From: Malacoraja senta
Taxonomy: Eukaryota
Reading direction: 5' to 3'
Assembly: GCA_038087875.1 (NCBI GenBank)
Contig: CM075992.1
Coordinates: 6,946,001 to 7,010,000 of the forward strand
Length of the DNA stretch: 64,000 nt
The notes under the pieces are model-generated. The model had not been told where the DNA came from and did no database searches. It saw only the letters and a list, made by a program, of their open reading frames with translations. Made by a program: the position numbers and the translations under genes. Positions 749 through 56,389 of the stretch are shown in pieces (position 1 is the first letter of the stretch; every line of letters begins with the position of its first letter).

Positions 749-1084
749 AGGGCCTGTCCCACTGCACGAGGTAATTCAAGAGTTCTCCCAAGTTCTCCCC
801 TGATTCGAGCTCGTGTAATGTACGTAGCAGGTACGTAGGGGCTCGTACGAGTAAAAAGTTTTTTTTAATTTCATCACGAGTATTTTTTTACTCGTGGACA
901 TTTTTCAGAGTGTTCAAAAAACATCACGAGTTTACCGGATTTCCCGAGTACCTACCGTTACTCGTACGAGCCGCTATAGGACATCCACGAGCTCCTACAT
1001 ACCCGCTACGTACATTACACGAGCACGAATCAGGGGAGAACTCGGGAGAGCTCCTGAATTACCTCGTACAGTGGGACAGGCCCT
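749..1084. mobile_element. MITE family A (PIF/Harbinger-like non-autonomous DNA transposon)
   Basis: About 90 bp imperfect TIRs AGGGCCTGTCCCACTG...CAGTGGGACAGGCCCT. TAA on both sides (746-748, 1085-1087). Inserted in a CR1 3' region whose empty site CCCTAACTCTCTCTTG is visible in the CR1 copy near 11430 (reverse strand). Confidence 0.85.
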
Positions 1085-14388: not shown

Positions 14389-14458
14389 GATGTTCCCTCC
14401 CCAACCCCCTAACATCAGTCTGAAGAAGGGTCTCGACCATGGCTCTCTGGCACTGTAA

Positions 14459-14748
14459 AGGCCCTGTTCCATGATGCGAGTTTACCCAAGAGCTCTCCCG
14501 AGTTAAAAAAAAAATCAAACTCGTGTTAAGTACGTAGAACGTACGTAGCGGGTACGTCGGAGCTCGTGAATGTCTCGTAGCGGCTCGTAATGCTAACGGC
14601 AGGTACTCCGGAAACTCGGAAACTCGTGAAGTTTTTTCAACAGTGTGAAAAATTTCCAAGAGTAAAAAAATACTCGTGATGAAGTACCACGAGTTTTTTA
14701 AAAACTTGGGAGAGCTCTTGGGTGAACTCGCATCGTGGGACAGGGGCT
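14459..14748. mobile_element. MITE family A
   Basis: TIRs AGGCCCTGTTCCATGATGCGAG / CTCGCATCGTGGGACAGGGGCT. TAA duplicated (14456-14458, 14749-14751) inside the SINE site CTG-TAA-GGCAGCAAC. Confidence 0.85.
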
Positions 14749-16189
14749 TAAGGCAGCAACTCTACTGCTGCGCCACCATGCCGCCCCGACTGTGATTCCC
14801 CGGTTAATAACTGTGTACGCTGAGAATCCACAGGCCCTAGTCAGTATGTATCAACCTCTCTCCCGCACAGATGGAACCAACCTGGGATGTCCAGGAAAAC
14901 AAACCGATTAAAAGGAATCCTTTGTACTAAGTGTGTTGCTTAAAAGTTTGGAAATTGAACTCTGACCCAGACAGAAACATTCTCAGTCAAAGGTTAGGAA
15001 TGCGCACATTTAATCACCAAGATACATAGTTCATCCTCAGCAAAAACAAATAAAAGACAGAAAATCATACTTAAAACCCCAAAGTGAGGCAATATTTTGA
15101 GTGACTTAATCACAGAGGGTCACGGTACATTCATCATCAGTCTGTCAGAGTATTGAGTCTGGAAGTTTAGTTTAGTTTAGAGATACAGTGAGGAGACAGG
15201 CCCTTCGGCCCACCAAGTCTGCACCTACCAGCAATTCCCACACACTAACACTATCCTACACACACTAGGGACAATTTACGCATACACCAAGCCAATTAAC
15301 CTATAAACCTGTGCATCTTTGGAGTGTGGGATGAAACTGAAGATCTCGGAGAAAACATCACCCGTTCCTTCTCTCCAGAGATGCTGCCTGTCCCGTTGAG
15401 TTACTCCAGCTTTTTGTGTCTATCTCCGATTTAAACCAGCACCTGCAGTTCTTTCCTGCACGTGATGATAGCTTCTTACCGTACGAAAGGGGCTGCGTCA
15501 GTCTGGAGTCCAGGGGAACATGGGTGAGATGAAGGTGGTGACTGTGGTGGTTCTACGGGAACCCACGGTGGAGATACGTCAGCAACTCCACACAGCTAAA
15601 GAAAGGGACAAAGAATGTGCATTTATATAGTGCCTTCCACAACCTCACAACACTTCACTGACACAAAGGCACAGTCTTCTATTGCGCTTGCTGCAAAGCA
15701 AGATCCCACAAGCATGGGACATCGTCCACACGCTCCCCGGCTTACGGAATAGGCGACTTACGCAAACCCAAACTCGCGGAAACAATTCTGTGGACAAGAA
15801 TGCTGGAGAAACTCAGCGAGTGAGGCAGCATCTATGGAGCGCCGGAATAGGTGACATTTCAGGTCGAGACCCTTCTTCAGACTGCATCTGCAGTTCTTTC
15901 TTAAACAATTCTGTACTCGGTCCCAAGTGCAATCAAGGCAGCTTGTAACTTCCACAGCTCCTCTGGGCGGTCACGGTGGTGCAGCAGTAGATAGACGCAA
16001 ATTGCTGGAGTAACTCATTTGTTGGAAAACGTTCTGACTGTCTACCGTATCTAAACAGAAACAGAAATAATATCCCGGGGGAATAGTTTCAGTGATGCTG
16101 ACTGACTGGACATTGTGGACAATTCCACTGATCATCTCTGACCGGCATTCTTCACCTGAGGGGGGCAAGCATGGACTCGACCACGTCAC

Positions 16190-22820: not shown

Positions 22821-24252
22821 CAACATGTTTGCCACAGTGTGGTCTGAAGGGCCTGTTCCATTGCTGTATGGTTCTGTGGACGTTGGTTAGGTCCCTGCTA
22901 AATCTACAAACCTCAATTGCCTCCCCTTCGCCCCCTCTGTCCCAAAGAAAACAAGGCCATTTTGCCCAATCTTTCCTCTGAGCTCCCAATATCCAGACCT
23001 GGCAGCATCTTGGCTAAATAAACTCCTCTCCTGTGTAATCACATCGCCCCTGTGATGTGGCGACCAGCTCTGGACCAAGAGGTCGTGCTGTGGCCAACTT
23101 AATGAGAGTGCTGTTATTTAGACTGTAAACATGAGGCTGGATGTGCTGAGGCTGTCAGTGAGGGGGAGGTGCAGACCGCACTTGCACTTCAACGTCGGAG
23201 AAGGTGGTAATTATGGAGCTGCAGCAAGTGGTGAGTGGAGACGGTGGATGTTTGGGACGAGGCTTTCGTTCCGAGAGCCAGCATCAATGGGGGAGTAGAC
23301 CCCCATGACACCAGCTCTGGGAGCTGACATAGAACACTGCTGTCTGTATGGAGTTTGTACGTTTTCCCCATGACTGCGTGGGTTTCCTCTGGGTGCTCCC
23401 ACCTCCCAAAATGTGCGGGTCAGAACCCTTCTTCGGACCTAGTGCGATTCTTGAGGCTGAAGAAGGGTCTCGACCTGAAACATCGCCCATCACTTATCTC
23501 CAGAGATGCTGCTTGACCTCTCTGAGTTACTCCAGCACTTTGTGGCTATCCCCATAATAAGGATAGACACTACCCCATGCACACTAGGGACAATTTTACA
23601 TTTATACCAAGCCAATTAACCAACAAACGTATTGCTGCTGAGGATGTGCAGGAAGGAACTGCAGATGCTGGTTTAAACTGAAGATAGACATAAAAAGCTG
23701 GAGTAACTCAGCGGGACAGGCTGCATTTATTGGAGGGAAGGAATGGGTGACGTTTCGGGTCTCTCCAGAGATGCTGCCTGTCCCGCTGAGTTACTACAGA
23801 TTCTTGTGTCTATCTTCGGATGAAACCAGCATCTGCAGTTCTTTCCTGCACATCCGTAATAGCACATCCGTAATAAGGAGGTCTGTTAAAATGAGGGTTT
23901 ACTGTGGAGATGACTTGAGTTGGCTCACAGACCAACTGTGATCTCAATGGATGGCAGAACAGGTTCGAGAGGCTAAATAGTCCAAGTTTGTTCCCATGGT
24001 TACACAACAATGGGCTCAGATCGCAAATCAACACATCTGCAGCGAGAGATCTGGAAAATGTAAGTGTTTGACTCCACATCTCAGCAGAGCTGATCTTTCA
24101 TCAGGCTGCTCAGTGTCACAGACCCCCACATCACACGCACACTCCACCATGGAGCAAGGGAGACAAGCTTGGAGATCCGACAGCATCCGACACAAATGTC
24201 AGCTGCAATCAGAAGATGCAAAGCTCAGTCACATGTGGTGATGGTCTAGGGT

Positions 24253-33070: not shown

Positions 33071-33381
33071 TGGGCCTGTCCCACTTAGGTTGATTTTCTA
33101 GGCAACTACAGGCGACTAGTTTGTCGCCACATGTTCGTCGGGAGTAGTCGCCTCAGTCGCGCAAAAAATCGTAGCGTCTTTATGGTCGGCGTTAAATTTT
33201 CAACGCGTTGAAAAAATGTTGGCGTTTGATGCCCATGAGCGTAGCTTGGCTTCTCTGACGTAGGTGCTGTCGTAGGTTGTCACCAGGATGACGTAGGTTG
33301 TCGCCGTTTTTTCGGCGAACTGCTACGACCATGACAGTCGCCGGCAGTTGCCTAAAAGAATCGGCAAGTGGGACAGGCCCG
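33071..33381. mobile_element. MITE family B (GTCGCC-rich), same TIR core
   Basis: TGGGCCTGTCCCACTT...AAGTGGGACAGGCCCG; flanks TAA / TTA; central palindrome TTTTCAACGCGTTGAAAA. Confidence 0.85.
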
Positions 33382-36886: not shown

Positions 36887-37311
36887 CGATCCCAGTACAC
36901 TAGCGTTATCCTACACACACTTGGGACAATTTACATTTTTACAAAGCCAATTAACCTCCAAACCTGCACGTCTTTGGATTGTGGTAAGTAACCAGAGCAC
37001 CCGGAGAAAACCCACTCTGATCACGGGGAAAACGTACAAACTCTGTACAGACAGTCCCCGTAGTTGGGATCGAACTTGGGTCACTGGCGCTGTGAGGCAG
37101 TAACTCTACCGCTGCACATTCATGCAATATCTCTAAACTAAATCACCGTCTGTATCTCTCGTTTCCCTTTCCCCTGACTCTCAGTTCAGTCTGTAGAAGG
37201 GGTCTCAACCCAAAACATCACCTATTCCTTTCTGTGGAGTTGCTGTCTGACCCACTGAGTTACTCCAGCTTTTTGTGCCTATCTTCAGTTTAAAACCAGC
37301 ATCTGCAGTCC

Positions 37312-37511
37312 NNNNNNNNNNNNNNNNNNNNNNNNNNNNNNNNNNNNNNNNNNNNNNNNNNNNNNNNNNNNNNNNNNNNNNNNNNNNNNNNNNNNNNNNN
37401 NNNNNNNNNNNNNNNNNNNNNNNNNNNNNNNNNNNNNNNNNNNNNNNNNNNNNNNNNNNNNNNNNNNNNNNNNNNNNNNNNNNNNNNNNNNNNNNNNNNN
37501 NNNNNNNNNNN
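37312..37511. other. Assembly gap (200 N)
   Basis: Run of N of round length, typical of a scaffolding placeholder. Confidence 0.99.
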
Positions 37512-37660
37512 CATCACGAGATGCGCGCATGGCGTGCATTACGCGAGCATGGTGCGTGGTGACGTGCAGTTGCGCGCGGCGCCCCAGAATTTTGCGATTC
37601 ACAAAATCATCGCGTGCCACCTGCTTGACGCGCAAATGACGCCCTAGTGGGACAGGCCCT
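37512..37660. mobile_element. MITE family C (GCGCG-rich), right end only; left part lost in the gap
   Basis: Ends AGTGGGACAGGCCCT-TAA followed by CTCCAGCTTTTTGTG of the Penelope-derived repeat. Confidence 0.75.
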
Positions 37661-40600
37661 TAACTCCAGCTTTTTGTGCCTATCTTATGATCAACTTGTT
37701 CAGAACCTGTGGAGGAAAGAGGTCAGAGAAGAAAGGAGGAGCAACAAAGGGGAGCATGGGAACGGAAAACGATGCAGTGGTTATCAGTTTCTCATCTTTA
37801 CATGAGCTTGATCACTGAATCTAAATCCCTGGATAGCATCAAGTCGGAGAGATCACTGTTGCTTGAGAGGAATGTGCAGCGTCTGGGATGGGTTAGCGGA
37901 ACATGCGACAGAACTTACTTTATTAAATCGCAATAACACGAGCAAAAGTCAAGGCGCATTCTCCAAATGCCTCTTTAACGCCCATGTTTCGGGGCTTGCT
38001 GAGAAGGGGGCAACAAGATACAGTGACCAAGGTGGAGGGGCAGGAAGATGGAAAGCGGGGCAGATTGGTGTCAGGGACGGAGCGTGGGGCAGAGAGGTGG
38101 GCAGGACTGAGGTAGCTTTCAGGTGAGAGGGGCAAAGTTTAAAGGAGATGTGCGGGTCAAGTTTTTTCTACGCAGAGGGTGGTGGAACGCGCCTGGAACG
38201 CACTGCCAGGGGTGCCGATGGAGGCAGATACAATAGTGGCATTTAAGAGGCTTTTAGATAGGCACATGGATATGCAGGGAATGGAGGGATATGGATCACT
38301 TACAGGCAGAGGAGATTAGTTAATAGACAATAGACAATAGACAATAGGTGCAAGAGTAGGCCATTCGGCCCTTCAAGCCAGCACCACCATTCAATATGAT
38401 CATGGCTGATCATCCCCAATCAGTGCCCCGTTCCTGCCTTCTCCCCATATCCCCTGACTCCGCTATCTTTAAGAGCCCTATCTAGCTCTCTCTTGAAAGT
38501 ATCCGGAGAACCGGCCTCCACCGCCCTCTGAGGCAGAGAATTCCACAGACTCACAACTCTCTGTGTGAATAAGTGTTTCCTCATCTCCGTTCTAAATGGC
38601 TTACCCCTTATTCTTAAACTGTGGCCCCTGGTTCTGGACTCCAGAAAAAAAGTTAACTTGGCATCATGTTCGGCACGGACGTTGTGGGCCGAAGGGCCTG
38701 TTCCTGTGTTGTACTGTGCTATGTTCTATGGAACGGGAGGGGTAGAGTGGAGGGAGGGAGAGAAAGGGGGGGGGGGGAGAGTTGGGGTGGGGCATGGATT
38801 GATAGAGATTGTGTGAGGTAGTGGGTGATATGGGAGTTAGAAGGGGCGGGACAGAGGAGCTGGGAAAGCAGACACGGAAAGGAAACAGTAAAAAACGATG
38901 GTAAAAACAAACTGTGAGTTTCCAAAAACAGCATTTATTTTTTCTGCCGGAGCCAGAAGCTTTTCCAGATGGATAAATCACTCTATCTTTCATTATGTCT
39001 GTGGAAACTGCTGCTCTCCCTGACCCTCTCCTTTACACGTACAAGTCTCAGTGGTTTTATGTGTGGCTGGAGAGGCAACAGCTAGCTATCCCGGGAGCAG
39101 CTTTTTAGGGGCAAGACACTGTATGAAACATGGGTGGCACAGCGGCACAGCGGGAAGAGCCACTGCCTCACAGCACCAGAGACCCGGGAACGATCCTGCA
39201 GTAACCTCAGGTGCTGTCTGTGTGGAGTTCGCACATTCGCCCTGTGAGGCCAAGGCAGTGGATATTTTTAAGGCAGAGATCATAGACAGATTCTTGATTA
39301 GTACACGTGTCAGAGGTTGCGGTGCTGGCTCGAAGGGCCGAATGGCCTCCTCCTGCACCTATTTTTTATATTTTCTATGTTATGGGGAATGGGGTTAGGA
39401 GGGAGAGATAGATCAGCCAAGATTGAATGGCGGAGTAGACTTGATGGGCCGAATGGCCTAATTCTACTCCTGTCACTTATGACCACGTGGGATTCCTCCA
39501 GGTGCTCCGGTTTCCTTCCACATCCCAAATACATTCTGGTTTGTAGGTTAATTAGCCCCTAGTGTGTAGGGAGTGGACGAGAAGTGGGATAGGATAACTA
39601 GTGTGAATGGGTGATCGGTGGGCCGAAGGGCGCGTTTCCATGCTGTATCTTTCAATCATTTCATAGAAACATAGAAAATAGGTGCAGGAGTAGGCCATTC
39701 GGCCCTTCGAGCCAGCACTACCATTCAATATGATCATGACTGATCATCCAGAATCAGTACCCGTTCCTGTTCTCCCCATATACCTTGCTTCCTTTAGCAC
39801 TAAGAGCTAAATCCAACTCTCTCTTGAGTACATCTTGATTACACTGAATTCAATCAATTTCAAACTCATTAAAACATATTAAGATTCAAGCAGCTGAATA
39901 AGACAAGACTGGGTCAAACCCTGGCCACAGGATAACAGGAGCAGGAGTAGTCCACTCGGCCCCTCAAGCCTGTGCCACTGCTCAACGGCATCATGGCTGA
40001 TCTACACTGGCCTCAACTCCTCTCTGTGCCAGTTCCCTATCACCCTCAATCCCTCAATCTTTATCTCTCTCCACATTAAATAGGATCCAACCTCCACCCT
40101 TCTAGCGGGCAGGGAGACTCCACCCTCTGAAAGAAGATATCTCTACACCTCATTTTTAAATGGCCGGCCCTTATTTTGTAACTGTGTCATATTCATGTCA
40201 CAGGAGTAGAATTAGGCCATTCCACCCACTGAGTCTAATCCACCATTCAATCATGGCTGATCTATTTTTCCCTCTTAACCCCACCCCCCTGCCTTCTCCC
40301 TATAACCCCTGACACCCATACTAATCAAGCATCCCTGCTTTAAAATTACCCATTGACTTGGCCTCCACAGCCAGCTGTGACAGTGAATTCCACAGATTCA
40401 CCACCCTCTGACTAAAGAAATTCCTCCTCGTCTTTTGTGTCCAAGATCTTAGTCATACAGTGTGGAAACAGACCCTTTGGCATAACTTGCCCACATCGAC
40501 CAACATGCCCCACCTACACTGGTCTCTTTTTGTAAACCAGAATCTGCAGTTAAAGATTTAAAATGGCGACTGCGATGCTGTGCAGTGCAGTCTTGCAATT

Positions 40601-41197
40601 GGGAAGGATTCCCAGTCATGGCCATTGGCACAGAGACATGGACAAGTGTTCTTTGGAATGGGTGGTGGGTGTGGTGGGAGTCTGGGGACGGATGTTGGCA
40701 AGTTGATGAATTCTATGTTAGGGAAACATGTTTCAGTTGTGCTGCTAAGCCCTTGACTGGCAAATAGTCACCAGCCACTTTCACAAAGACGTCCACTTGG
40801 TCCAGAGTATTAGAGTCATACAGCGTGGAAACAGGAAACAAACCCTTCTGCACAACTTGCCCACGTCGACCAACATGTCCCATCTACACTTGTCTCTTTT
40901 TGTAGACCAGCATCTAGTTCCATGTTTCTCCAGCTTAAGGATTTGGCCAAGGTAGGAGATAGGAGAGGACAGGTTTTCTCTCAAATAGGAACTGTTAACT
41001 CTGCTGCAAATTCACACAATTTCGATTTCACGCACTGTTCTCAGCCTCCCCGCGAGACACAGCATTTGATACGCTCGTTTATAAATGCATTCCATTCAGA
41101 TGAATCAAAACATCACGAGTGGAGAACCCAGCTCTCGGCCCTGACCACACAGGGGTGTGGTGCAGACTCTGTTCTTGGACAGAGGCACAAGGATCAG

Positions 41198-41497
41198 AGC
41201 GGCACGGTGGCGCAGCGGTAGAGTTGCTGCCTCACAGCGCCAGAGACCCGGGTTCAATCCTGACTCCGGGTGCTTGTCCGTACGGAGTTTGTACGTTCTC
41301 CCTGTGACTCGCGAGGGTTTTCTCCAGGAGCTCCGGTTTCCTCCCACACTCCAAAGATGTACAGATTTGTAGGGTAATTGGCTTCTCTAAATTGCAATTT
41401 GTCCCTAGTGTGTGTGTAGGATAGTGCAAGTGTCCTGGGTGATTGCTGGCCGATGCGGACTTGGTGGGCCGAAGGGCCTGTTTCCACACTGTATCTA
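41198..41497 (+). mobile_element. tRNA-derived SINE, full length
   Basis: Same consensus. Confidence 0.9.
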
Positions 41498-41500
41498 CGT

Positions 41501-41969
41501 TAAGTTTGGAGATACAGCACAGAAACAGGCGCTTCGGACCACCGAGTCCGCGCCGACCAGCGATCCCCGCACACTAGCACTATCCTACACACCCTAGGGA
41601 CAATAGATAGAGCTCTAGGGGCTAGTGGAGTCAAGGGATATGGGGAGAAGGCAGGCACGGGTTATTGATAGGGACCGATCAGCCATGATCACAATGAATG
41701 GCGGTGCTGGCTCGAAGGGCCGACTGGCCTCCTGCACCTATTTTCTTTGTTTCTATGTTTCTATGTAATTTATAATTTTACTGAAGCCAATTAGCTGACA
41801 AACCTGTGTGTCTTTGGAGTGTGGGGGAGAAAACCGGAGCACCTGGAGAAAATTCGTGCAGGTCACAGGAAGAACGTACAAACTCCATACAGACAGCACC
41901 TGTGGTCAGAATTGAACCTGGGTCTCTGGCGCTGTGAGGCAGCAACTCTACCGCTGCGCCACCGTGCCG
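41501..41969 (-). mobile_element. tRNA-derived SINE interrupted by a CR1 3' end (about 41604-41766, plus)
   Basis: Reverse consensus split after GGGACAAT. Confidence 0.85.
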
Positions 41970-44044
41970 CTCTCTCAGGTCAAGGTTAGGACCTCTTAAA
42001 TCTCTAAAGCCTACAGATGGCAGGCAGCATTGCACTCTCTGACGACCCGCCCTTCCTGAGTGAGAGATTCTCCAGATCCAGCAGCGCTGGAGAGTCAGGA
42101 GCCTGGATCTCCGCTCCGCTCTCACCTCAGGGGACAGACATGGAGCCAAAGTAAAAGGTCACACATTTGTCATCAGTGCAGCCGCCACTATCAGTGCCTT
42201 GGCCGATTACATTGGGTGTGGCCGGCCTCGTCCACATCAGCTCACTGGAATGTCCTGAGCATCAGAGGAGTGGTAAGAAATGAAACCAGAGATGGCCCTT
42301 CATAAATTCATGTCACAGGAGCAGAATTATGCTGAATTTAGCAGAATTTCTATTCAGCGATCGAGCTAATATAAAGATTAGCATCGTTTTCCATTCCCAT
42401 GCTCCCCTTTGTTGCTCCTCTTTCCTTCTCTGACCTCTCTCCTCCACAGGTTCTGAACAAGGACTGACCCAAAATCGACCATGTTCCCTGCAACAGGGCA
42501 CATATCTGGCAGGTTTTGCAAATGTCCAGAGTAAGCTCTAACCAGGTGCTGAGTGGGTGTAAGAAGCCCACACACCTGTCTTTCATATGTTCCTGTCTTA
42601 GGAGCGGAATTAGGCCATTCGGCCCATCAAATCAATTCTGCCATTCAATCATGGCTGATCTATCTTTCCCTCTCAACCCCATTCTCCTGCCCTCCCCATA
42701 ACCCCTGAAACCAGTACTATTAAACAATCTGTCAATCGTCGCCTTAAAAATACCCCAAATGGCCTCCTCAACTGTCAGTGGCAATGGATTCCACAGATTC
42801 ACCACCATCTAACTAGAGAAATTCATCCTCATCACCTCTCTGAAAGTGCGTCCTTTTATTCTGAGGCTGTCCCCTCTGGTCCTAGACGCTCCCACTAGTG
42901 GAAACATCCTCTCCACATCCATTCTATCCAGGTCTTTCATTATTCACCATTCACATTTCACTATTTTGTCTGCCATCTACTAAGATTAGGGCCAGGGCAT
43001 AACTCTGGGAAATGTGCGATTAGGATGTATTTCTCTGATCAGATTCAAATTATTTCGTTTACATTAAAGATACAGCACAGAAACAGGCCCTTCAGCCCAC
43101 TGCGTCCACGCCGACCATCGATCACCCATTCACCCCAGTTCTATGTTATCCCACTTTCTCATCCACTCCCTACACACTAGGGGCAATTTACAGTGGGCCA
43201 ATTAACCTACAAACCCGCACGGTTTGGGAATTGGGACAAAACCGGAGCAAGGTCACAGGGTGAACGTGCAAACTCCACACAGACAGCACCCAAGCCCACG
43301 GTCAGGATCAAAATTGGGTCTCTGGTGCTGTTAGGGAGCAACTCTGCTGCTAAGCCACTGTGCTGCCCCAGAGGAATAATTCCTCTCTCCACCCCCCTCC
43401 CCATACAGATGCCCTCCGAGGTGTGTGGCAGGTACCCAGGAACGGTGCTGAATTATAGGGCCACCCAGGTGACAGATTACATTTATATTCCTCATATATC
43501 CTGAAGAGAAGGTTGTACAACTCTGCACCAACTCTCAACCCCCCCCCCCTGTTATCTCCCCCCGTTCCTCCCACCACCCACCTACAGAATGGGACTTTAC
43601 TGGAGAGACTTAACCTACCTACCACCAGTTTTTTTTGGAGTGTGGGAGGAAACCAGAGCACCCAGTCGAAACCCACACGATCACAGGGGGAACGTGCGAA
43701 CTCCACACAGACAGCACTGGAAGTCGGGGTTGCTGTAGTTGAGGTAGTGGCTCTACCGCTAGGTTTAGGTTACGGTTTATTATTGTACCGAGCTACAGTG
43801 ACAAGCTTGGTTTTGGATGCTATCCAGTCTAGGCAACAGTGCCATCTTTTTCAAAAGCTCGTCTTAGTTTAGTTTAATCTAGTGTATTATTATCAAATTT
43901 ACCGCAGTACAGTGAAAATCTTTTTGTTGCATGCTGTGCAGTCAAAGAATTAAAATCAAGCCGTCCACAGTGTACAGATAAAGGATAAAAGGAATAACCT
44001 TTAATGCAAGATAAAGTTTGATTAAAGATAGTTCAAATGTTTCC

Positions 44045-44560
44045 AATATGCTATTGAGGGAGTGCAGCGTAGGTTCACCAGGTTAATTCCCGGGATGGCG
44101 GGACTATCATATGATGAAAGAATGGGTCGACTGGGCTTGTATTCACTGGAATTTAGAAGGATGAGAGGGAATCTTATAGAAACATATAAAATTATTAAGG
44201 GGTTGGACACGCTAGATGCAGGAAACATGTTCCAGATGTTGGGGGAGTCAAGAACCAGGGTCCACAGTTTAAGAATAAGGGGTAGGCCGTTTAGAACGGA
44301 GACGAGGAAAAACTTTTTCACCCAGAGAGTTGTGAATCTGTGGAATTCTCTGCCTCAGAAGGTAGTGGAGGCCGATTCACTGGATGCATTAATAAGAGAG
44401 TTAGATAGAGTTCTTAGAGCCAGTGGAATCAAGGGATATGGGGAGAAGGCAGGAACGGGGTACTGATTGGGAATGATCAGCCATGATCATATTGAATGGT
44501 GGTGCTGGCTCGAAGGTCCAAATGGCCTACACCTGCACCTATTGTCTACGTATCTATGTA
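44045..44560 (+). mobile_element. CR1 LINE 3' fragment with open RT C-terminal frame
   Basis: ORF 44062-44466 [44 protein letters not shown]...GYGEKAGTGY*. Confidence 0.93.
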
Positions 44561-44654
44561 TCAATAAGGTAGATGGGAGGTCAGGACCGCACTCTAGTTG
44601 GTGAGAGGATGGTTCAGTTGCCTGAACTGTCCCTGAATCTGGAGGTATGCTTTT

Positions 44655-44957
44655 TTTTTAGTTTTAGAGATACTCATACAGCGCGGAAACAGGCCCACCG
44701 AGTCCGCACCGACCAGCGATCCCCGCATATTAACACTACCCTACACACACTAGGGGACAATATTACCTGGATACCAAGCCAATTAACCTACAAACCTGTA
44801 CGTTTTTGGATTGTGGGAGGAAGCCAAAGATCTTGGAGAAAACCCACGCAGGTTTCGGGAAGAACGTACAAACTCCGTACAGACAAGCACGCGTAGTCAG
44901 GATCGAACCCGGGTCTCTGGCGCTGGAAGGCAGTAGATCTACCGTTGCGCCGCCGTG
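44655..44957 (-). mobile_element. tRNA-derived SINE
   Basis: Reverse consensus. Confidence 0.85.
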
Positions 44958-45563
44958 CAGCCCTCAAACCTCTGTACTCAAACTGCTGACCTCTTGGCTG
45001 ATGGGAGTGGGGAGATGAGAGAGTTTGCAGCTCACACAACAAGATGTAACATTCACAGCAATGTGACAAGGGTCAGCTATACCCGAGATCAAACTGGAAA
45101 CTCCCATGCCGTTTAAATGCTGTTTCCCGACCAGATGAAAGGCTAAGAAAGAAGGGCGCACTCCAGCATTGATCTTGGTCTAAGTACCAGGGAGAGTTGA
45201 ACCACTTTCAAGTTGAGAGGCTGAGTTCGAACCCGGGTTATATCCGTTATCTGTGTCTGGATCCCACAGCTTGCCGAGGAATGTGGCGAGGGGTGGGAAT
45301 GTTTGTTTCAAACCGCATCAGAGCAAGTGGGAGGTACTGGTTGGGTTTGGAGGGTTGGTGTTACATCTCACAGGCAAACACATGACTCCCAGCCTGTCAC
45401 TGCTCCCAGGGCGGGCTGTCAGAGACACACGCCTGCAATTAATCACAAATATCAACACACATACCATCTTCCCAGATGACCCCTCCTGAAGCTCAGAGCT
45501 GTGCCTCAGTGGTTCAATGGTACTTTACTGTTCATTGAAGATAGACACAAAAAGCTGGAGTTA

Positions 45564-46135
45564 TGGGCCTGTCCCACCTAGGAGATTTTTTTGGCAACTT
45601 CCGGCGACTGTAATAATTGTAGCAGGTCGCCGAAAAACTGGCGACTGGACCCCCCTACGAGAATGTCTACGACAATGTCTACAACAACCTACCACCTAGT
45701 CGACATCCAGCTACGGCAAGCTACCGACAACCGGCGACCCATTAGGACGCCCACACCTACGACAACCTATGTCCACCCGCGACAAGCTACGGCAAGGTAA
45801 GACAATTCAGTCGGCGGTACCTGTCGCCAGTTGACGTAGGAAGTCGCCAATGGAATTTACCGAAGTCAGCACCGGCGACAACCTACGTCATCCTGGCGAC
45901 AACCTACGACAGCAACCACGTCAGGAGAAGTTAAGCTACGCTCATTGGCGTCAAGCCAATTGTCGCCGAAAGGTTTCAAACATTTCAAAATCCAGCGGCG
46001 ACCAGAAAGGCGCTACGACTCTTTGGGCGACTGAGGAGACGACTCACGACCATACAGGCGACTCCCTGGCGACCATGTGGCGACAGCCTAGTCGCCTGTG
46101 GTCGCCTAATAAATCGCCTAAGTGGGACAGGGGCA
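45564..46135. mobile_element. MITE family B, longer copy, opposite orientation to 33071-33381
   Basis: TGGGCCTGTCCCAC...GTGGGACAGGGGCA; many GGCGAC/GTCGCC submotifs; splits GCTGGAG|CTCAG of a Penelope-derived element. Confidence 0.85.
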
Positions 46136-46503
46136 TATCTCAGTGGGACAGGCAGCATCTCTGGAGAGAAGGAATGGATGACGTTTCGGGTCGAGTCCAC
46201 ATGTAGTTGATTAGTATGGGTGTCAGGGATTCTGGGGAGAAGGCAGGAGAATGGGGTTGAGAGGGAAAGATAGATCAGCCATGATTGAATGGCGGAGTAG
46301 TCACGATGGGCCGAATGACTGAATTCCGCTCCTATATCTTATGAACTTATGAATATGTTCAGTGAGATTCCTTTCTTGCATACAGTTCAGTAAACATCAT
46401 TGGCACAATCAGACTCAAGTACAGTGTAAAGTTAGTCGATTACACTGAGGTAGGATACAAGAGCACCCTTCAAGTTGCAAAAAGACACAAAGTGCTGGAG
46501 TAA

Positions 46504-46834
46504 AAGCCCTGTCCCACGGTACGAGTTCATTCCAAGAGCTCTCCCGAGTTTAAAAAAAATCGAGCTCGTGGTAAGCACGGAGAATGAACGTAGCGGGTAT
46601 GTCGGAGCTCGGGGACGTCTCTTAGCGGCTCGTAACACTAACGGCAGGTACTCGAGAAGACTCGCTAAACGGCAGGTAAGCACGGGAAGACTCATGAAGA
46701 TTTTTCAACATGATGAAAAATGTCCACGAGAGCCCCGAGTACCGACGAGTGGCCATTACCGTAAATCTCCGAGTTCGAATCAGGGCAAACTCGGGAGAAC
46801 TCTTGGAATGAACTCGTACCGTGGGACAGGGGTT
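46504..46834. mobile_element. MITE family A
   Basis: AAGCCCTGTCCCACGGTACGAGTTCATTCCAAGAG / CTCTTGGAATGAACTCGTACCGTGGGACAGGGGTT; flanks TAA / TTA; splits GCTGGAG|CTCAGC. Confidence 0.88.
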
Positions 46835-47255
46835 TTACTCAGCATCTCTGGAGAACATGGATTGATGACGTTTTGGGTCGGGAACCTTCTTCAGAGTCCG
46901 AGTCTGAAGAAAGATCCTGACCTGAAACGTCACCAATCCATGTTCTCCTGAGATGCTGCATGACCCACTGAGTTACTCCAGCACTTTGCGTCTTCTTTTG
47001 TAAACCAGCATCTGTAGTTCCTTGTTTCTACTTTCCTCATCCAACACCGGACAGCCATCTGTTCAATCCTTGATAATGTTTATTGGGTCAAATTGAAGAT
47101 TTTAATCCGTGTGTTAAAAATGCAGAATTTCCTCATCTTTAATCTCCGTCCATCCAAAAAACATTTATCAACACTCTGTTTCTTTGACACCATTTCTGCC
47201 ATTCGCCCACCATGGTCAGTTGTACATAGAGGACTTTACCATGCTCTAGAAATCC

Positions 47256-53229: not shown

Positions 53230-53430
53230 TGTAAGAAAGAACTGCAGATGCTGGTTTAAATCAAAGGGAGACACAAAATGCTGGAGCAACTCAGCGGGAC
53301 AGGCAGCATCTCTGGAGAGAAGGAATGGGTGACTTTTCGGATCGAAACGTCTCGACCCGAAAAGTCACCCATTCCTTCTCTCCAGAGATACTGCCTGTCC
53401 CGCTGAGTTACTCCAGCAAGTTTGGTCTAC
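53230..53430. mobile_element. Fold-back (inverted) Penelope-derived element
   Basis: About 65 bp arms TGCTGGAGCAACTCAGCGGGACAGG...GACTTTTCGG / CCGAAAAGTC...GAGTTACTCCAGCA. Confidence 0.85.
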
Positions 53431-54831
53431 CCTAGTTAAAGTAATCTCCTCTGCCAGCACAAGATCCATAACCCTCCATCTCCTGCAGAAAACCAAGTCC
53501 CTATCTAATAGCCTCTTAAATCCCACTTTCACATCTGCCTGCACCACCACCTCTGGCAGTGCGTTCTAGGCATCCATCACCCACTGTGTAAAAGAAAACT
53601 TGCTCCACACATCTCCTTTAAACTTTGTCCCTCTCACCTTAAAGCTCTGCCCTCTAGTCTTTGACATTTCCACCCTGGGAGAAAACTTCTGTCTCTCTGC
53701 CCTATCTATGCCTCTCATAATTCTATATCTATCTATCTGTACACTACAAGGGCCAGGAAGCGAGTGGGCAAGATCATCTCTGACCCCTCTCACCCTGGCC
53801 ACAAACTCTTTGAATCACTTCCCTCTGGAAGGCGACTCCAGACTGTCAAAAGCTGCCACAGCCAGACATTAAAACAGTTTTTATCCACAAGTAGTTGCTC
53901 TACTCAACAGCCAAAAACATGTAGCCTCCGTTTGATCTGGTATTTTGTTGGTTGACATGCTTGACCAATGGTGTTCTAACATTAATGTTTTATTATTATT
54001 AATGTTTAGTGTTTTCTGAGTGATTCGTAACTGTCACTATATGTCATGTTGTTACTTGTGGGCAGAGCACCAAGGCAAATTCCTTGTATGTGAATACTTG
54101 GCCAATAAACTTACTTACTTACTGACTTAGTCTCCCTCAACCTCCAGCATCCCAGCAAGCTCCAACACATAGTGACAATCTGAGCTGGCTCTGGATCAAA
54201 CATAGGTTCACCAGCAATGTTTGCTGAACTTGGGTTGAGCACAGTGGACAAGTCATGATTCATTTATTCCAAATCACACTCGTGGAGCCACACGGCTGAA
54301 CGGATGGAACATTCCAATGAGATAAAGGTTCGTATGCCTCAAGTGGGTGGCTGTCAAAATGATGAACTCCAGCACCGTTTTAAATCACAGTCCAAGATCT
54401 ACGCAGGTCTCACATTCAGTGACAATAGCTGCAAAGCACACACAGTTGTCACAGCAGGTCAACGGTACAACCTAACTGACACACCATGGCTTTACATTTC
54501 AGTCTCTCACGGAATATGTAGCCTCGTGGCAAAAAAGGCCGTTTCCACTAACAGTCCCGTATCTTATGAGAATGTCAATTTTACAGAGTTGTTACTGATA
54601 GATGGAAATAGCAGATTGTTATTATGCACTCTTGTAGAACTGACCTCACTGTTAAAATCATAACACACTGTGATTAAAAGTAACAGTCAAAGGTATTTAC
54701 TTGGAATGCAATTAAACTCAAATTAAAACTAAAAACAAATGCCACAATAGTCCAAAAAGACATTTGGGCAGACGTATGGATACGAAGGTTCAGATGCATA
54801 TGGCCCAAATACAAATAACCCAATATGCCAG

Positions 54832-55047
54832 GAAGGATTGCAGATGCTGGTTTCACCAAAGATAGACACAAAATGCTGGAGTAACTCAGCAGGACAGGCA
54901 GCATCTCTGGAGAGAAGGAATGGGTGACGTTTCAGGTCGGGCGGTCTGAAGAAGGGTCTCGACCCGAAACGTCACCCATTCCTTCGCTCCAGAGATGCTG
55001 CCTGTCCCGCTGCGTTACTCCAGCATTTTGTGTCTATCTTTAGCCAA
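54832..55047. mobile_element. Fold-back Penelope-derived element with an intact hammerhead and 11 bp TSD
   Basis: About 80 bp inverted arms; CAATATGCCAG at 54821-54831 and 55048-55058. Confidence 0.85.
54943..54976 (+). ncRNA. Minimal hammerhead ribozyme motif
   Basis: GGT-CTGAAGA-A-GGGTC-TC-GACCC-GAAAC-GTC-ACC; GGT/ACC can form stem I; predicted cleavage after C54973. Confidence 0.75.
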
Positions 55048-56389
55048 CAATATGCCAGCATGGACAAGGTGGGCCGAAGGGACTGTTTTGTTGCTGAACA
55101 GCTCTACGACTCTAAAATTACAGTATCTTCCTTAAACTCCTCCAAAATAGAGTTCAATGATTTTGTAGTTCGAATCAGTGAATAACTTGGAAGGTGGAAT
55201 GCCAGCCAATGCAGTGACAATGCAGGCACAGAGAGAATAGCAACAACACAGCAGTTACAGAAGCTGGTTTCAGCATAGCTGATCAAAGAAACCCTGTCTC
55301 ATTAGTCAGATAATCAAGAGATATTGATGCAATTGAGTAAATAGGCTATGAAGAGGAAAATGGATTTTAATGAGCTCTACATTTCAAAAGGACTCCTTTC
55401 TCTCAAATTCTGCACATGAATCCAAAATGGGAAGGTGAAAGGAAAGGGGGCAAGGTCAGAAATGAAAATAGATTCAGGGAAAAAAACCCTCTGGGAATAT
55501 TCAATGGGAATGGATTATTTAATTTCAATAATAAACTTTATTCATAAAAAATGTAAGAAATATGGCGGCACAGTGGCGCAGTGGAGGAGTTGCTGTCTGT
55601 ACGGAGTTTGCACGTTCTCATGGTGATGGTGGAGTAGAGGGATATGGGGAGAAGGCAGGAAGGGGGTACTGATCGTGGATGATCAGCCATGGTCACAGTG
55701 AATGGCGGTGCTGGCTTGAAGGGCCGAATGGCCTACTCCTGCACCTATTGCCTATTGTCTATTGTCCTGTATGGGTTTTCTCCGGGAGCTCCAGTTTCCT
55801 CCCACACCCCAAAGATGTGCAGGTTTGTAGGTTAATTGACTTTGCAAAATTGTAAATTGTTCGTAGTGTGTAGGATGTGAGCAGGTATTGCAGGTTGGTG
55901 CAGACTCGTTGGGTCGATGGGCCTATTTCCGCGCTGTAATTCTTAATTAAACTAAAATCAAAGCAGTGCATGGAAGCAGTGCATGGCTATCTTTACATTC
56001 AGTTAGTTTTGCTATTGGTTTATTATTGCCACATGTACCAAGGTACAATTCATAATATATCTGAGTGCCTCAGGTAGTGCCAAAGAGGAAACCAACAAAT
56101 TGCTGATTGTAGTGTGTAAGAAGGAACTGCAGATGCTGGTTTAAACCAAAGATAGACACAAAAGCTGAAGTAACTCAGCGGGACAGGCAGCATTCTCTAG
56201 AGAGAAGGAATGGGGACGTTGTATGAAGGAGGGTCTCGACCCAAAACATCACCCATTCCTTCTCTCCAGAGATGCTGCCTGTCCCGCTGAGTTACTCCAG
56301 CTTTTTTGTGTCTATCTTTGCTGATTGGAGTGTTACAACTGCAGAGAGATTGCAGGTAAAAAAGTACGAGGTTCGTAATGAGGTAGATT

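What the first reader, a model, noticed from the sequence alone, without database searches (positions are those of the whole stretch)
37512..46837. Three different MITE families inserted at the same TAA of the ribozyme element, next to a mimic of their own TIR
Seen: MITEs at 45564-46135 (family B), 46504-46834 (family A) and ending at 37660 (family C) all interrupt the near-palindrome GCTGGAG-TAA-CTCAGC of the Penelope-derived repeat. That is 3 of the 6 MITEs in the window. In many host copies this site is followed within a few bases by GCGGGACAGGC, nearly the MITE terminal motif GTGGGACAGGC; the flank at about 46143 reads exactly GTGGGACAGGC. Established: PIF/Harbinger elements have TWA targets and extended palindromic target preferences. 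Inference: a target-biased DNA transposon uses an abundant retroelement as a safe landing pad, possibly guided by transposase binding to the TIR-like motif.
Basis: partly seen in the sequence, partly recalled or inferred. Interest (0 to 1): 0.7.

Follow-up and report, generated by a model that had tools for sequence, protein, structure and literature searches.

The report
Harbinger MITEs swap target-duplication middle base
Small jumping DNA elements land in this common retroelement site about 8-10 times more often than at an average site, but two other repeats are hit harder and the look-alike motif makes no difference; the surprise is that about one junction in five has its middle letter changed, likely because the element carries a scrap of its old site into the new one.

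Summary
The three insertions are real, from three MITE families, at the same TAA of a Penelope-type repeat. Genome-wide the site is used about 8-10 times more than an average TWA, yet holds only about 2.5% of elements. The rest of the reading fails. Hosts with the TIR-like motif are filled no more often than hosts without it (287/68,789 vs 269/69,126; ratio 1.07, CI 0.91-1.27). A SINE site and a LINE site are hit 37x and 32x, and two of the window's other MITEs sit in those. The elements are Tourist-like MITEs of PIF/Harbinger (a 4.7-kb element with the same TIR, DDE_Tnp_4 and MADF frames exists), with the superfamily's usual 9-bp flank preference, which GAG-TAA-CTC fits. The unexpected result: the middle base of the 3-bp duplication is swapped A<->T at about 18% of filled junctions versus about 1% of empty hosts, in mirror image at TTA targets, and at all three window insertions. 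Likely the excised element brings its 3-nt donor overhang and the mismatch is fixed either way (inferred). I found no report of this in six searches, and no earlier finding of this scan.

The parts
45564..46135 (.). MITE family B, 572 bp, in the host site; junction triplets TTA (45561-45563) and TAT (46136-46138) where the host has TAA
   Evidence: 75% like the MITE at 33071
46504..46834 (.). MITE family A, 331 bp, in the host site; triplets TAA (46501-46503) and TTA (46835-46837)
   Evidence: 43 matches over 60% of its length among fetched loci, up to 95% identical
37512..37660 (.). MITE family C, one end only (200-N gap before it); junction reads TTA in host orientation
45540..45560 (+). Host repeat 5' flank of MITE B, ending GCTGGAG
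46139..46198 (+). Host repeat 3' flank of MITE B, with a truncated hammerhead-like core on the minus strand at its far end
   Evidence: motif spacing
46143..46153 (+). TIR-like motif GTGGGACAGGC; a CpG-decayed form of the host's GCGGGACAGGC with no measurable effect on insertion
46484..46500 (+). Host repeat 5' flank of MITE A
46838..46900 (+). Host repeat 3' flank of MITE A; the TIR-like motif is deleted here
37664..37686 (-). Host repeat 5' flank of MITE C
749..1084 (.). Family A-like MITE, 336 bp, TAA/TAA, in the recurrent LINE site (217 such junctions genome-wide)
14459..14748 (.). Family A-like MITE, 290 bp, TAA/TAA, in the recurrent SINE site (785 such junctions genome-wide)
33071..33381 (.). 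Family B-like MITE, 311 bp, at a site not recognised as a repeat; triplets TAA/TTA (swapped)

Best explanation
These are Tourist-like MITEs of the PIF/Harbinger superfamily that favour TWA sites flanked by G/C at positions 1 and 3 on both sides, so they recur at any abundant repeat carrying such a site, and the middle base of their 3-bp duplication is often swapped, likely because the excised element keeps a 3-nt overhang from its old site. Shown: TIR, 3-bp TWA junctions, flank bias, enrichment at three repeats, no effect of the TIR-like motif, the swap and its mirror image. Inferred: mobilisation in trans by the two-gene elements with the same TIR; staggered excision leaving 5' TWA overhangs on the element (model from mPing); the overhang pairing with the target's single-stranded TWA instead of being trimmed, giving a T:T or A:A mismatch that is fixed to the donor base roughly a third of the time.
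For: 57,965 strict TIR ends. Among 113 non-host ends, position -1 is C/G in 74%, -2 is G in only 8%, -3 is C/G in 62%; this matrix predicts 13-14x (positions 1-3) or 7-8x (1-5) for the host site; observed 7.6-10.6x. GAG flanks 5,303 of 57,965 ends and only 6 of the first 30 such loci were classed as host. SINE site 785/53,026 = 37x; LINE site 217/16,996 = 32x. Many families and lengths (184-1,228 bp, 86 complete host insertions) fill the site, so insertions are independent. Coding element L322: 4,746 bp, same TIR, TAA/TAA, DDE_Tnp_4 E 7.8e-35 in a 405-aa open frame and a convergent MADF frame at the cut-off. Swap: left junction TTA in 17 of the first 100 listed (125 genome-wide); right junction TTA in 21 and 16 of the first 100; empty hosts about 1.2% TTA (7,211 non-A of 208,888, 35 of the first 100 TTA). 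Mirror: TAA at 18 of 100 filled vs 6 of 100 empty SINE sites, 11 of 100 vs 1 of 100 LINE sites. TGA, the transition, is not in excess (12 seen, 9.3 expected). 12 of 53 unselected complete elements have A/T-discordant triplets. Overhang model: PMC4561436, PMC11254759.
Against: The flank matrix under-predicts the SINE site (10-13x predicted, 37x seen), so age, chromatin or longer context also matter; it rests on 113 ends mostly from the tip of one contig. No coding element matching families A, B or C beyond the TIR was found among the DDE loci fetched (30 of 150 scored matches as 3.5-kb loci, 22 stretches of 10 kb). For the overhang step: the two ends swap with no detectable correlation (10 of 42 vs 13 of 58, Fisher P = 1.0), where a hand calculation expects about 28% vs 16%: compatible but not supportive. 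In yeast, mPing with TCA/TCA donors gave only 1 of 46 new junctions with TCA (PMC4561436), which argues against strong carry-over there. The TCA excess here (21 seen, 3.8 expected) is larger than the few TCA donor ends (3 of 104) easily explain. No donor-target pair was observed.
Confidence: 0.6

Rival explanations
1. Ordinary flank preference as above, but the swap arises in place: the element is cut out with its overhangs and re-joined flipped in the same gap, or one end is cut and resealed with the triplet inverted.
For: TTA is the reverse complement of TAA, so no outside donor is needed for the main signal. Uses the same staggered cut proposed in PMC4561436.
Against: Cannot make TCA from TAA, yet TCA is 5.5-fold in excess. 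A flip mismatches both ends together and predicts a stronger correlation than seen.
Confidence: 0.2
2. Quasi-palindrome correction after insertion: the element folds back and one triplet is rewritten from the other, making the inverted repeat perfect.
For: Most swapped elements are TTA..TAA or TAA..TTA, which extends the inverted repeat (32 of 42).
Against: Double swaps (TTA..TTA at a TAA host) are 10 of 42, against about 6.5% expected from hosts that were already TTA (P = 3e-4). 23 of 40 TTA..TAA matches keep unequal 14-nt TIRs and 0 of 46 right flanks are converted beyond the triplet. No route to TCA.
Confidence: 0.08
3. One reading: the transposase complex binds the TIR-like motif in the Penelope repeat and uses it as a dedicated landing pad.
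For: The site is enriched 7.6-10.6x and holds hundreds of independent insertions.
Against: Rate ratio mimic/non-mimic 1.07 (0.91-1.27); the two empty host classes are equally decayed (7.5% vs 8.0%), so age does not obviously mask an effect; the perfect motif is as common among filled non-mimic hosts as C-to-T decay (18 and 20 of 100); repeats without the motif are hotter.
Confidence: 0.03
4. The filled sites are copies of a few MITE-in-retroelement composites amplified by retrotransposition.
For: The hosts are retroelements with about 200,000 copies.
Against: 86 complete host insertions span many families and lengths.
Confidence: 0.02

Closest known systems
Tourist-like MITEs of PIF/Harbinger (mPing with Ping/Pong; maize PIF)
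   Same: Short non-coding elements, about 14-bp TIRs, 3-bp TWA duplication, 9-bp extended target preference, two-gene partner with DDE transposase and Myb/MADF protein (PMC2836001, passages).
   Different: About a fifth of junctions differ from the target at the middle base; PMC11254759 (passages) states that free insertions have an intact duplication.
mPing staggered-cut model (PMC4561436; PMC11254759)
   Same: Cutting within the duplicated triplets, 5' overhangs; donor TTA/TAA seen delivered to Cas9-cut sites.
   Different: There the delivery is into blunt nuclease cuts. Here the signature is at natural TWA targets in an animal genome. Their 46 yeast insertions from TCA donors showed TCA once.
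Harbinger3_DR of zebrafish
   Same: Vertebrate Harbinger with a palindromic target preference (PMC3016246, passages).
   Different: That element has a strict 15-bp consensus around CWG; these have a loose S-x-S TWA S-x-S bias.
piggyBac
   Same: Element ends carry the duplicated site as a 5' overhang, and excision is seamless (PMC7351741, passages). Mismatched junctions at non-TTAA sites are recalled from memory, not read.
   Different: Different transposase family, 4-nt palindromic TTAA, so no mismatch at canonical sites; the 3-nt TWA mismatches by design in about half of events.
Penelope-like element terminal repeats with minimal hammerhead motifs (PMC4209133, passages)
   Same: Host has the core CUGAnGA, an unpaired base, helix II, GAAAC-GUC, and a sister subfamily copy lies 150 nt after an RT plus GIY-YIG-like frame (L208).
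   Different: The insertion site lies about 40 nt outside the core; self-cleavage untested.

Membership tests
PIF/Harbinger Tourist-like MITE | Terminal inverted repeats on a short non-coding element | tested here: met
   14-bp TIRs, 290-572 bp elements
PIF/Harbinger Tourist-like MITE | 3-bp TWA target duplication | tested here: met
   90 of 104 ends found without requiring it read TAA or TTA (loci were centred on TWA-selected ends); 36 of 53 pairs identical, 12 differ only A/T in the middle
PIF/Harbinger Tourist-like MITE | Target preference extending beyond the duplication | tested here: met
   Bias at -1 to -4 in 113 non-host ends
PIF/Harbinger Tourist-like MITE | Coding element with the same TIR, DDE transposase and Myb/MADF gene | tested here: met
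   L322, L321, L264; MADF hits partial, one at the cut-off, two below
PIF/Harbinger Tourist-like MITE | Families A, B, C derive from or are moved by that element | tested here: inconclusive
   Only the TIR is shared; no internal match
PIF/Harbinger Tourist-like MITE | Precise excision | not testable with these tools
   Needs orthologous alleles or an assay
Penelope-like element terminal repeat | Lies at the end of an RT plus GIY-YIG frame | tested here: met
   L208: 543-residue open frame with RT-type motifs read by eye and GIY-YIG E 5.7e-4 (below cut-off), 150 nt before a sister-subfamily copy; 1 such case among 352 cores
Penelope-like element terminal repeat | Minimal hammerhead motif | tested here: inconclusive
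   Core present by eye; no Rfam match; fold of one copy uninformative, z -0.65
Target-specific transposon (dedicated repeat target) | Most copies at one repeat site | tested here: not met
   About 2.4-2.6% of elements; 3 of 116 unselected ends
Target-specific transposon (dedicated repeat target) | Insertion depends on a TIR-like motif beside the site | tested here: not met
   Ratio 1.07, CI 0.91-1.27

The most novel reading that the evidence does not exclude
In natural transposition of an animal PIF/Harbinger family the donor's 3-nt overhang is built into the new junction, so the 'target-site duplication' is partly inherited from the previous site and each end records a repaired heteroduplex; high-copy repeats with a known pre-insertion base make this readable for thousands of events.
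Probability: 0.55. Interest if true: 0.55.

Novelty: new variant of a known kind. Interest (0 to 1): 0.33.

Why it matters
The landing-pad and mimic idea does not hold, so the original finding is ordinary. The swap matters in three ways if the overhang reading is right. It would be genome-scale evidence for how PIF/Harbinger transposases finish insertion, a step with no structure found in my search. It means filters that demand identical 3-bp flanks, as used in PMC13668399 (passage), would drop a quarter to a third of real elements here (17 of 53 pairs differ), and dating by duplication mismatch would mislead. It gives a count of how T:T and A:A mismatches were resolved in a germ line.

Tried and rejected
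Rfam at gathering level on the window: 0 matches; at E up to 10 on one host copy: 4 chance matches. Folding one host copy: z -0.65, copy has an internal inversion. PDB sequence search with the L208 frame: 0 matches. My first estimate of double swaps (6 of 15, 40%) suggested correlated ends; with 70 loci it fell to 10 of 42 (24%) and the correlation vanished; 17 of the 63 host-like junctions had no partner end in the fetched stretch, 4 had other triplets and 7 of 70 were not host-like, and all these were left out. 70 of the 125 TTA-left junctions were examined. The first GAG count (24 of 173) was inflated by host-selected loci and was redone on unselected loci (7 of 113). The GGGTGAGG/GGGTGCAG subfamily mostly reads GAGAAACTC, without a TWA, so it was not used for the mimic test. 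Earlier findings of the scan: 2 shown for this genome, both unrelated; 0 by words. PMC4423477 passages held nothing on mismatched duplications.
Full report
What is in the window. Six MITEs share a 14-bp TIR ending CCTGTCCCAC: 749-1084, 14459-14748, 33071-33381, 37512-37660 (cut by a gap), 45564-46135 and 46504-46834. The last three interrupt the same triplet of a repeat with 45 recognisable empty copies in the window, and BLAST separates them into three families. The junctions are not clean TAA/TAA: TTA/TAT, TAA/TTA and TTA/gap in host orientation. Only the 45564 element has the TIR-like motif beside it. The triplet lies 38-39 nt outside the hammerhead-like core. The host is Penelope-type: in L208 a sister-subfamily copy follows a 543-residue open frame with RT-type motifs (read by eye) and a weak GIY-YIG match, as described for minimal hammerheads in PMC4209133 (passages). 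Rfam did not detect the motif.

What the elements are. The genome (1.94 Gb) has 57,965 strict TIR ends with a TWA triplet, against 3 for the reversed pattern. A DDE_Tnp_4 search scored 150 of 534 candidates; several fetched loci are bounded by the same or a near TIR. L322 holds a 4,746-bp element with the TIR, TAA/TAA flanks, a 405-aa DDE frame and a convergent MADF frame. This is the two-gene PIF/Harbinger plan (PMC2836001, passages). Its subterminal sequence matches another MITE family that also fills the host site, not families A, B or C, so their mobilisation in trans is inferred.

Is the site enriched? Yes. Baseline is 3.9e-4 ends per TWA side, from 75.5 sides per kb in 20 evenly spaced 10-kb stretches of five contigs (4.6e-4 with the denser local set). 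Left junctions: 550 per 182,163 empty sites, 7.6x. Right junctions: 10.6x and 9.9x. But only about 2.5% of elements are there.

Is it special? No. In 113 non-host ends the flank is C/G at -1 (74%), rarely G at -2 (8%), C/G at -3 (62%), A at -4 (52%); a matrix from these predicts 7-14x for the host site. A tRNA-type SINE site has 785 junctions per 53,026 empty sites (37x) and a LINE site 217 per 16,996 (32x); the SINE and LINE labels are by eye and recall. The window's MITEs at 14459 and 749 sit in exactly these. The matrix under-predicts the SINE (10-13x), so host age or context adds. Filled hosts keep the nearby CpG less often than empty ones (40 of 74 vs 115 of 162), which suggests some hosts arrived after the MITEs and dilute the rate (inference). 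Three of six in this host-rich window has P about 0.05-0.08.

Does the mimic guide? No. With GGACAGG: 287 filled per 68,789 empty. With GGTCAGG: 269 per 69,126. Ratio 1.07, 95% CI 0.91-1.27. The two empty classes are equally decayed. The GGTCAGG class includes 66-bp tandem arrays, a possible dilution that would, if anything, inflate the ratio.

The unexpected result. Because the hosts' original base is known, the duplication can be checked. Empty hosts read TTA in about 1.2%. Filled hosts read TTA at the left in 17 of the first 100 and at the right in 37 of 200 (counted by eye from the listings). At TTA targets the mirror holds: TAA in 18 of 100 filled vs 6 of 100 empty SINE sites and 11 vs 1 for the LINE. 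Filled and empty listings cover different stretches of the first contigs. TGA is not in excess (12 vs 9.3), so this is not general mutation; TCA is (21 vs 3.8). Among 53 complete elements not selected by site, 36 have identical triplets, 12 differ A/T in the middle and 5 otherwise. Of 42 resolved TTA-left insertions, 32 are TAA on the right and 10 TTA, so they are mostly not hosts that were already TTA, and double swaps exceed what fold-back correction allows (P = 3e-4).

Mechanism. PMC4561436 (parts 1-3 of 5 read; supplements not seen) proposes staggered cuts in the triplets with 5' overhangs; PMC11254759 (passages) saw donor TTA/TAA delivered to Cas9 cuts and assumes intact duplications in free transposition. 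If the overhang pairs with the target's single strand, about half of ends meet a T:T or A:A mismatch; an 18% swap needs the donor base to win about 37% of the time (hand arithmetic). piggyBac ends carry such overhangs (PMC7351741, passages). Against: no end-to-end correlation (10 of 42 vs 13 of 58), only 1 of 46 TCA junctions from TCA donors in yeast, and a TCA excess larger than donor frequency suggests. I put carry-over at about 55-60%, in-place flipping at 20%, fold-back correction under 10%.

Novelty. Elements and target bias are known kinds. Searches for a report of mismatched Harbinger duplications found none; most subscription papers and Repbase are not in the library. Verdict: observation partly confirmed, landing-pad and mimic reading not supported, a mechanistic side finding of moderate interest.

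Noticed in passing
G000:C1:2699051-2824271 (listing): Many arrays of a 66-bp tandem unit containing the host motif GAGTAACTCAGYRGGTCAGG; could be tandem terminal-repeat arrays of the Penelope-type element.
   Followed up: no
window 23633-23864, 53266-53431, 54858-55041, 56164-56301: Host copies often occur as head-to-head inverted pairs joined near the hammerhead-like core.
   Followed up: no
L360:2929-6946: A transposase-coding element sits in the host site itself, with a TTA left junction; a near-identical junction is listed about 113 kb away on the same contig.
   Followed up: partly
L253-L260, L266, L270, L271: A related Harbinger family with TIR variant AAGGCCTGTCTCAC, about 5 kb, with many 440-480-residue open transposase frames and 270-288-bp internal tandem repeats that contain a TIR-like motif; looks young.
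   Followed up: partly
window 14430-14775: The recurrent SINE triplet lies where the anticodon loop of the tRNA-like head would be (by eye); it is the hottest site measured, 37x, above the flank-matrix prediction.
   Followed up: partly
empty host sites, listing: TTA outnumbers TCA among empty hosts (35 vs 19 of 100), and 6 of 100 empty SINE sites read TAA; some may be footprints of precise excision from swapped insertions.
   Followed up: no
window 37254-37686: An empty host just before the 200-N gap and the filled host just after it share a rare variant in the 5' flank but diverge beyond it; a local duplication is possible.
   Followed up: no
L208:7817-9700: Long open Penelope-type frame followed by two tandem terminal repeats of the GAGAAACTC subfamily, which lacks the TWA and so cannot be hit at this position.
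   Followed up: partly
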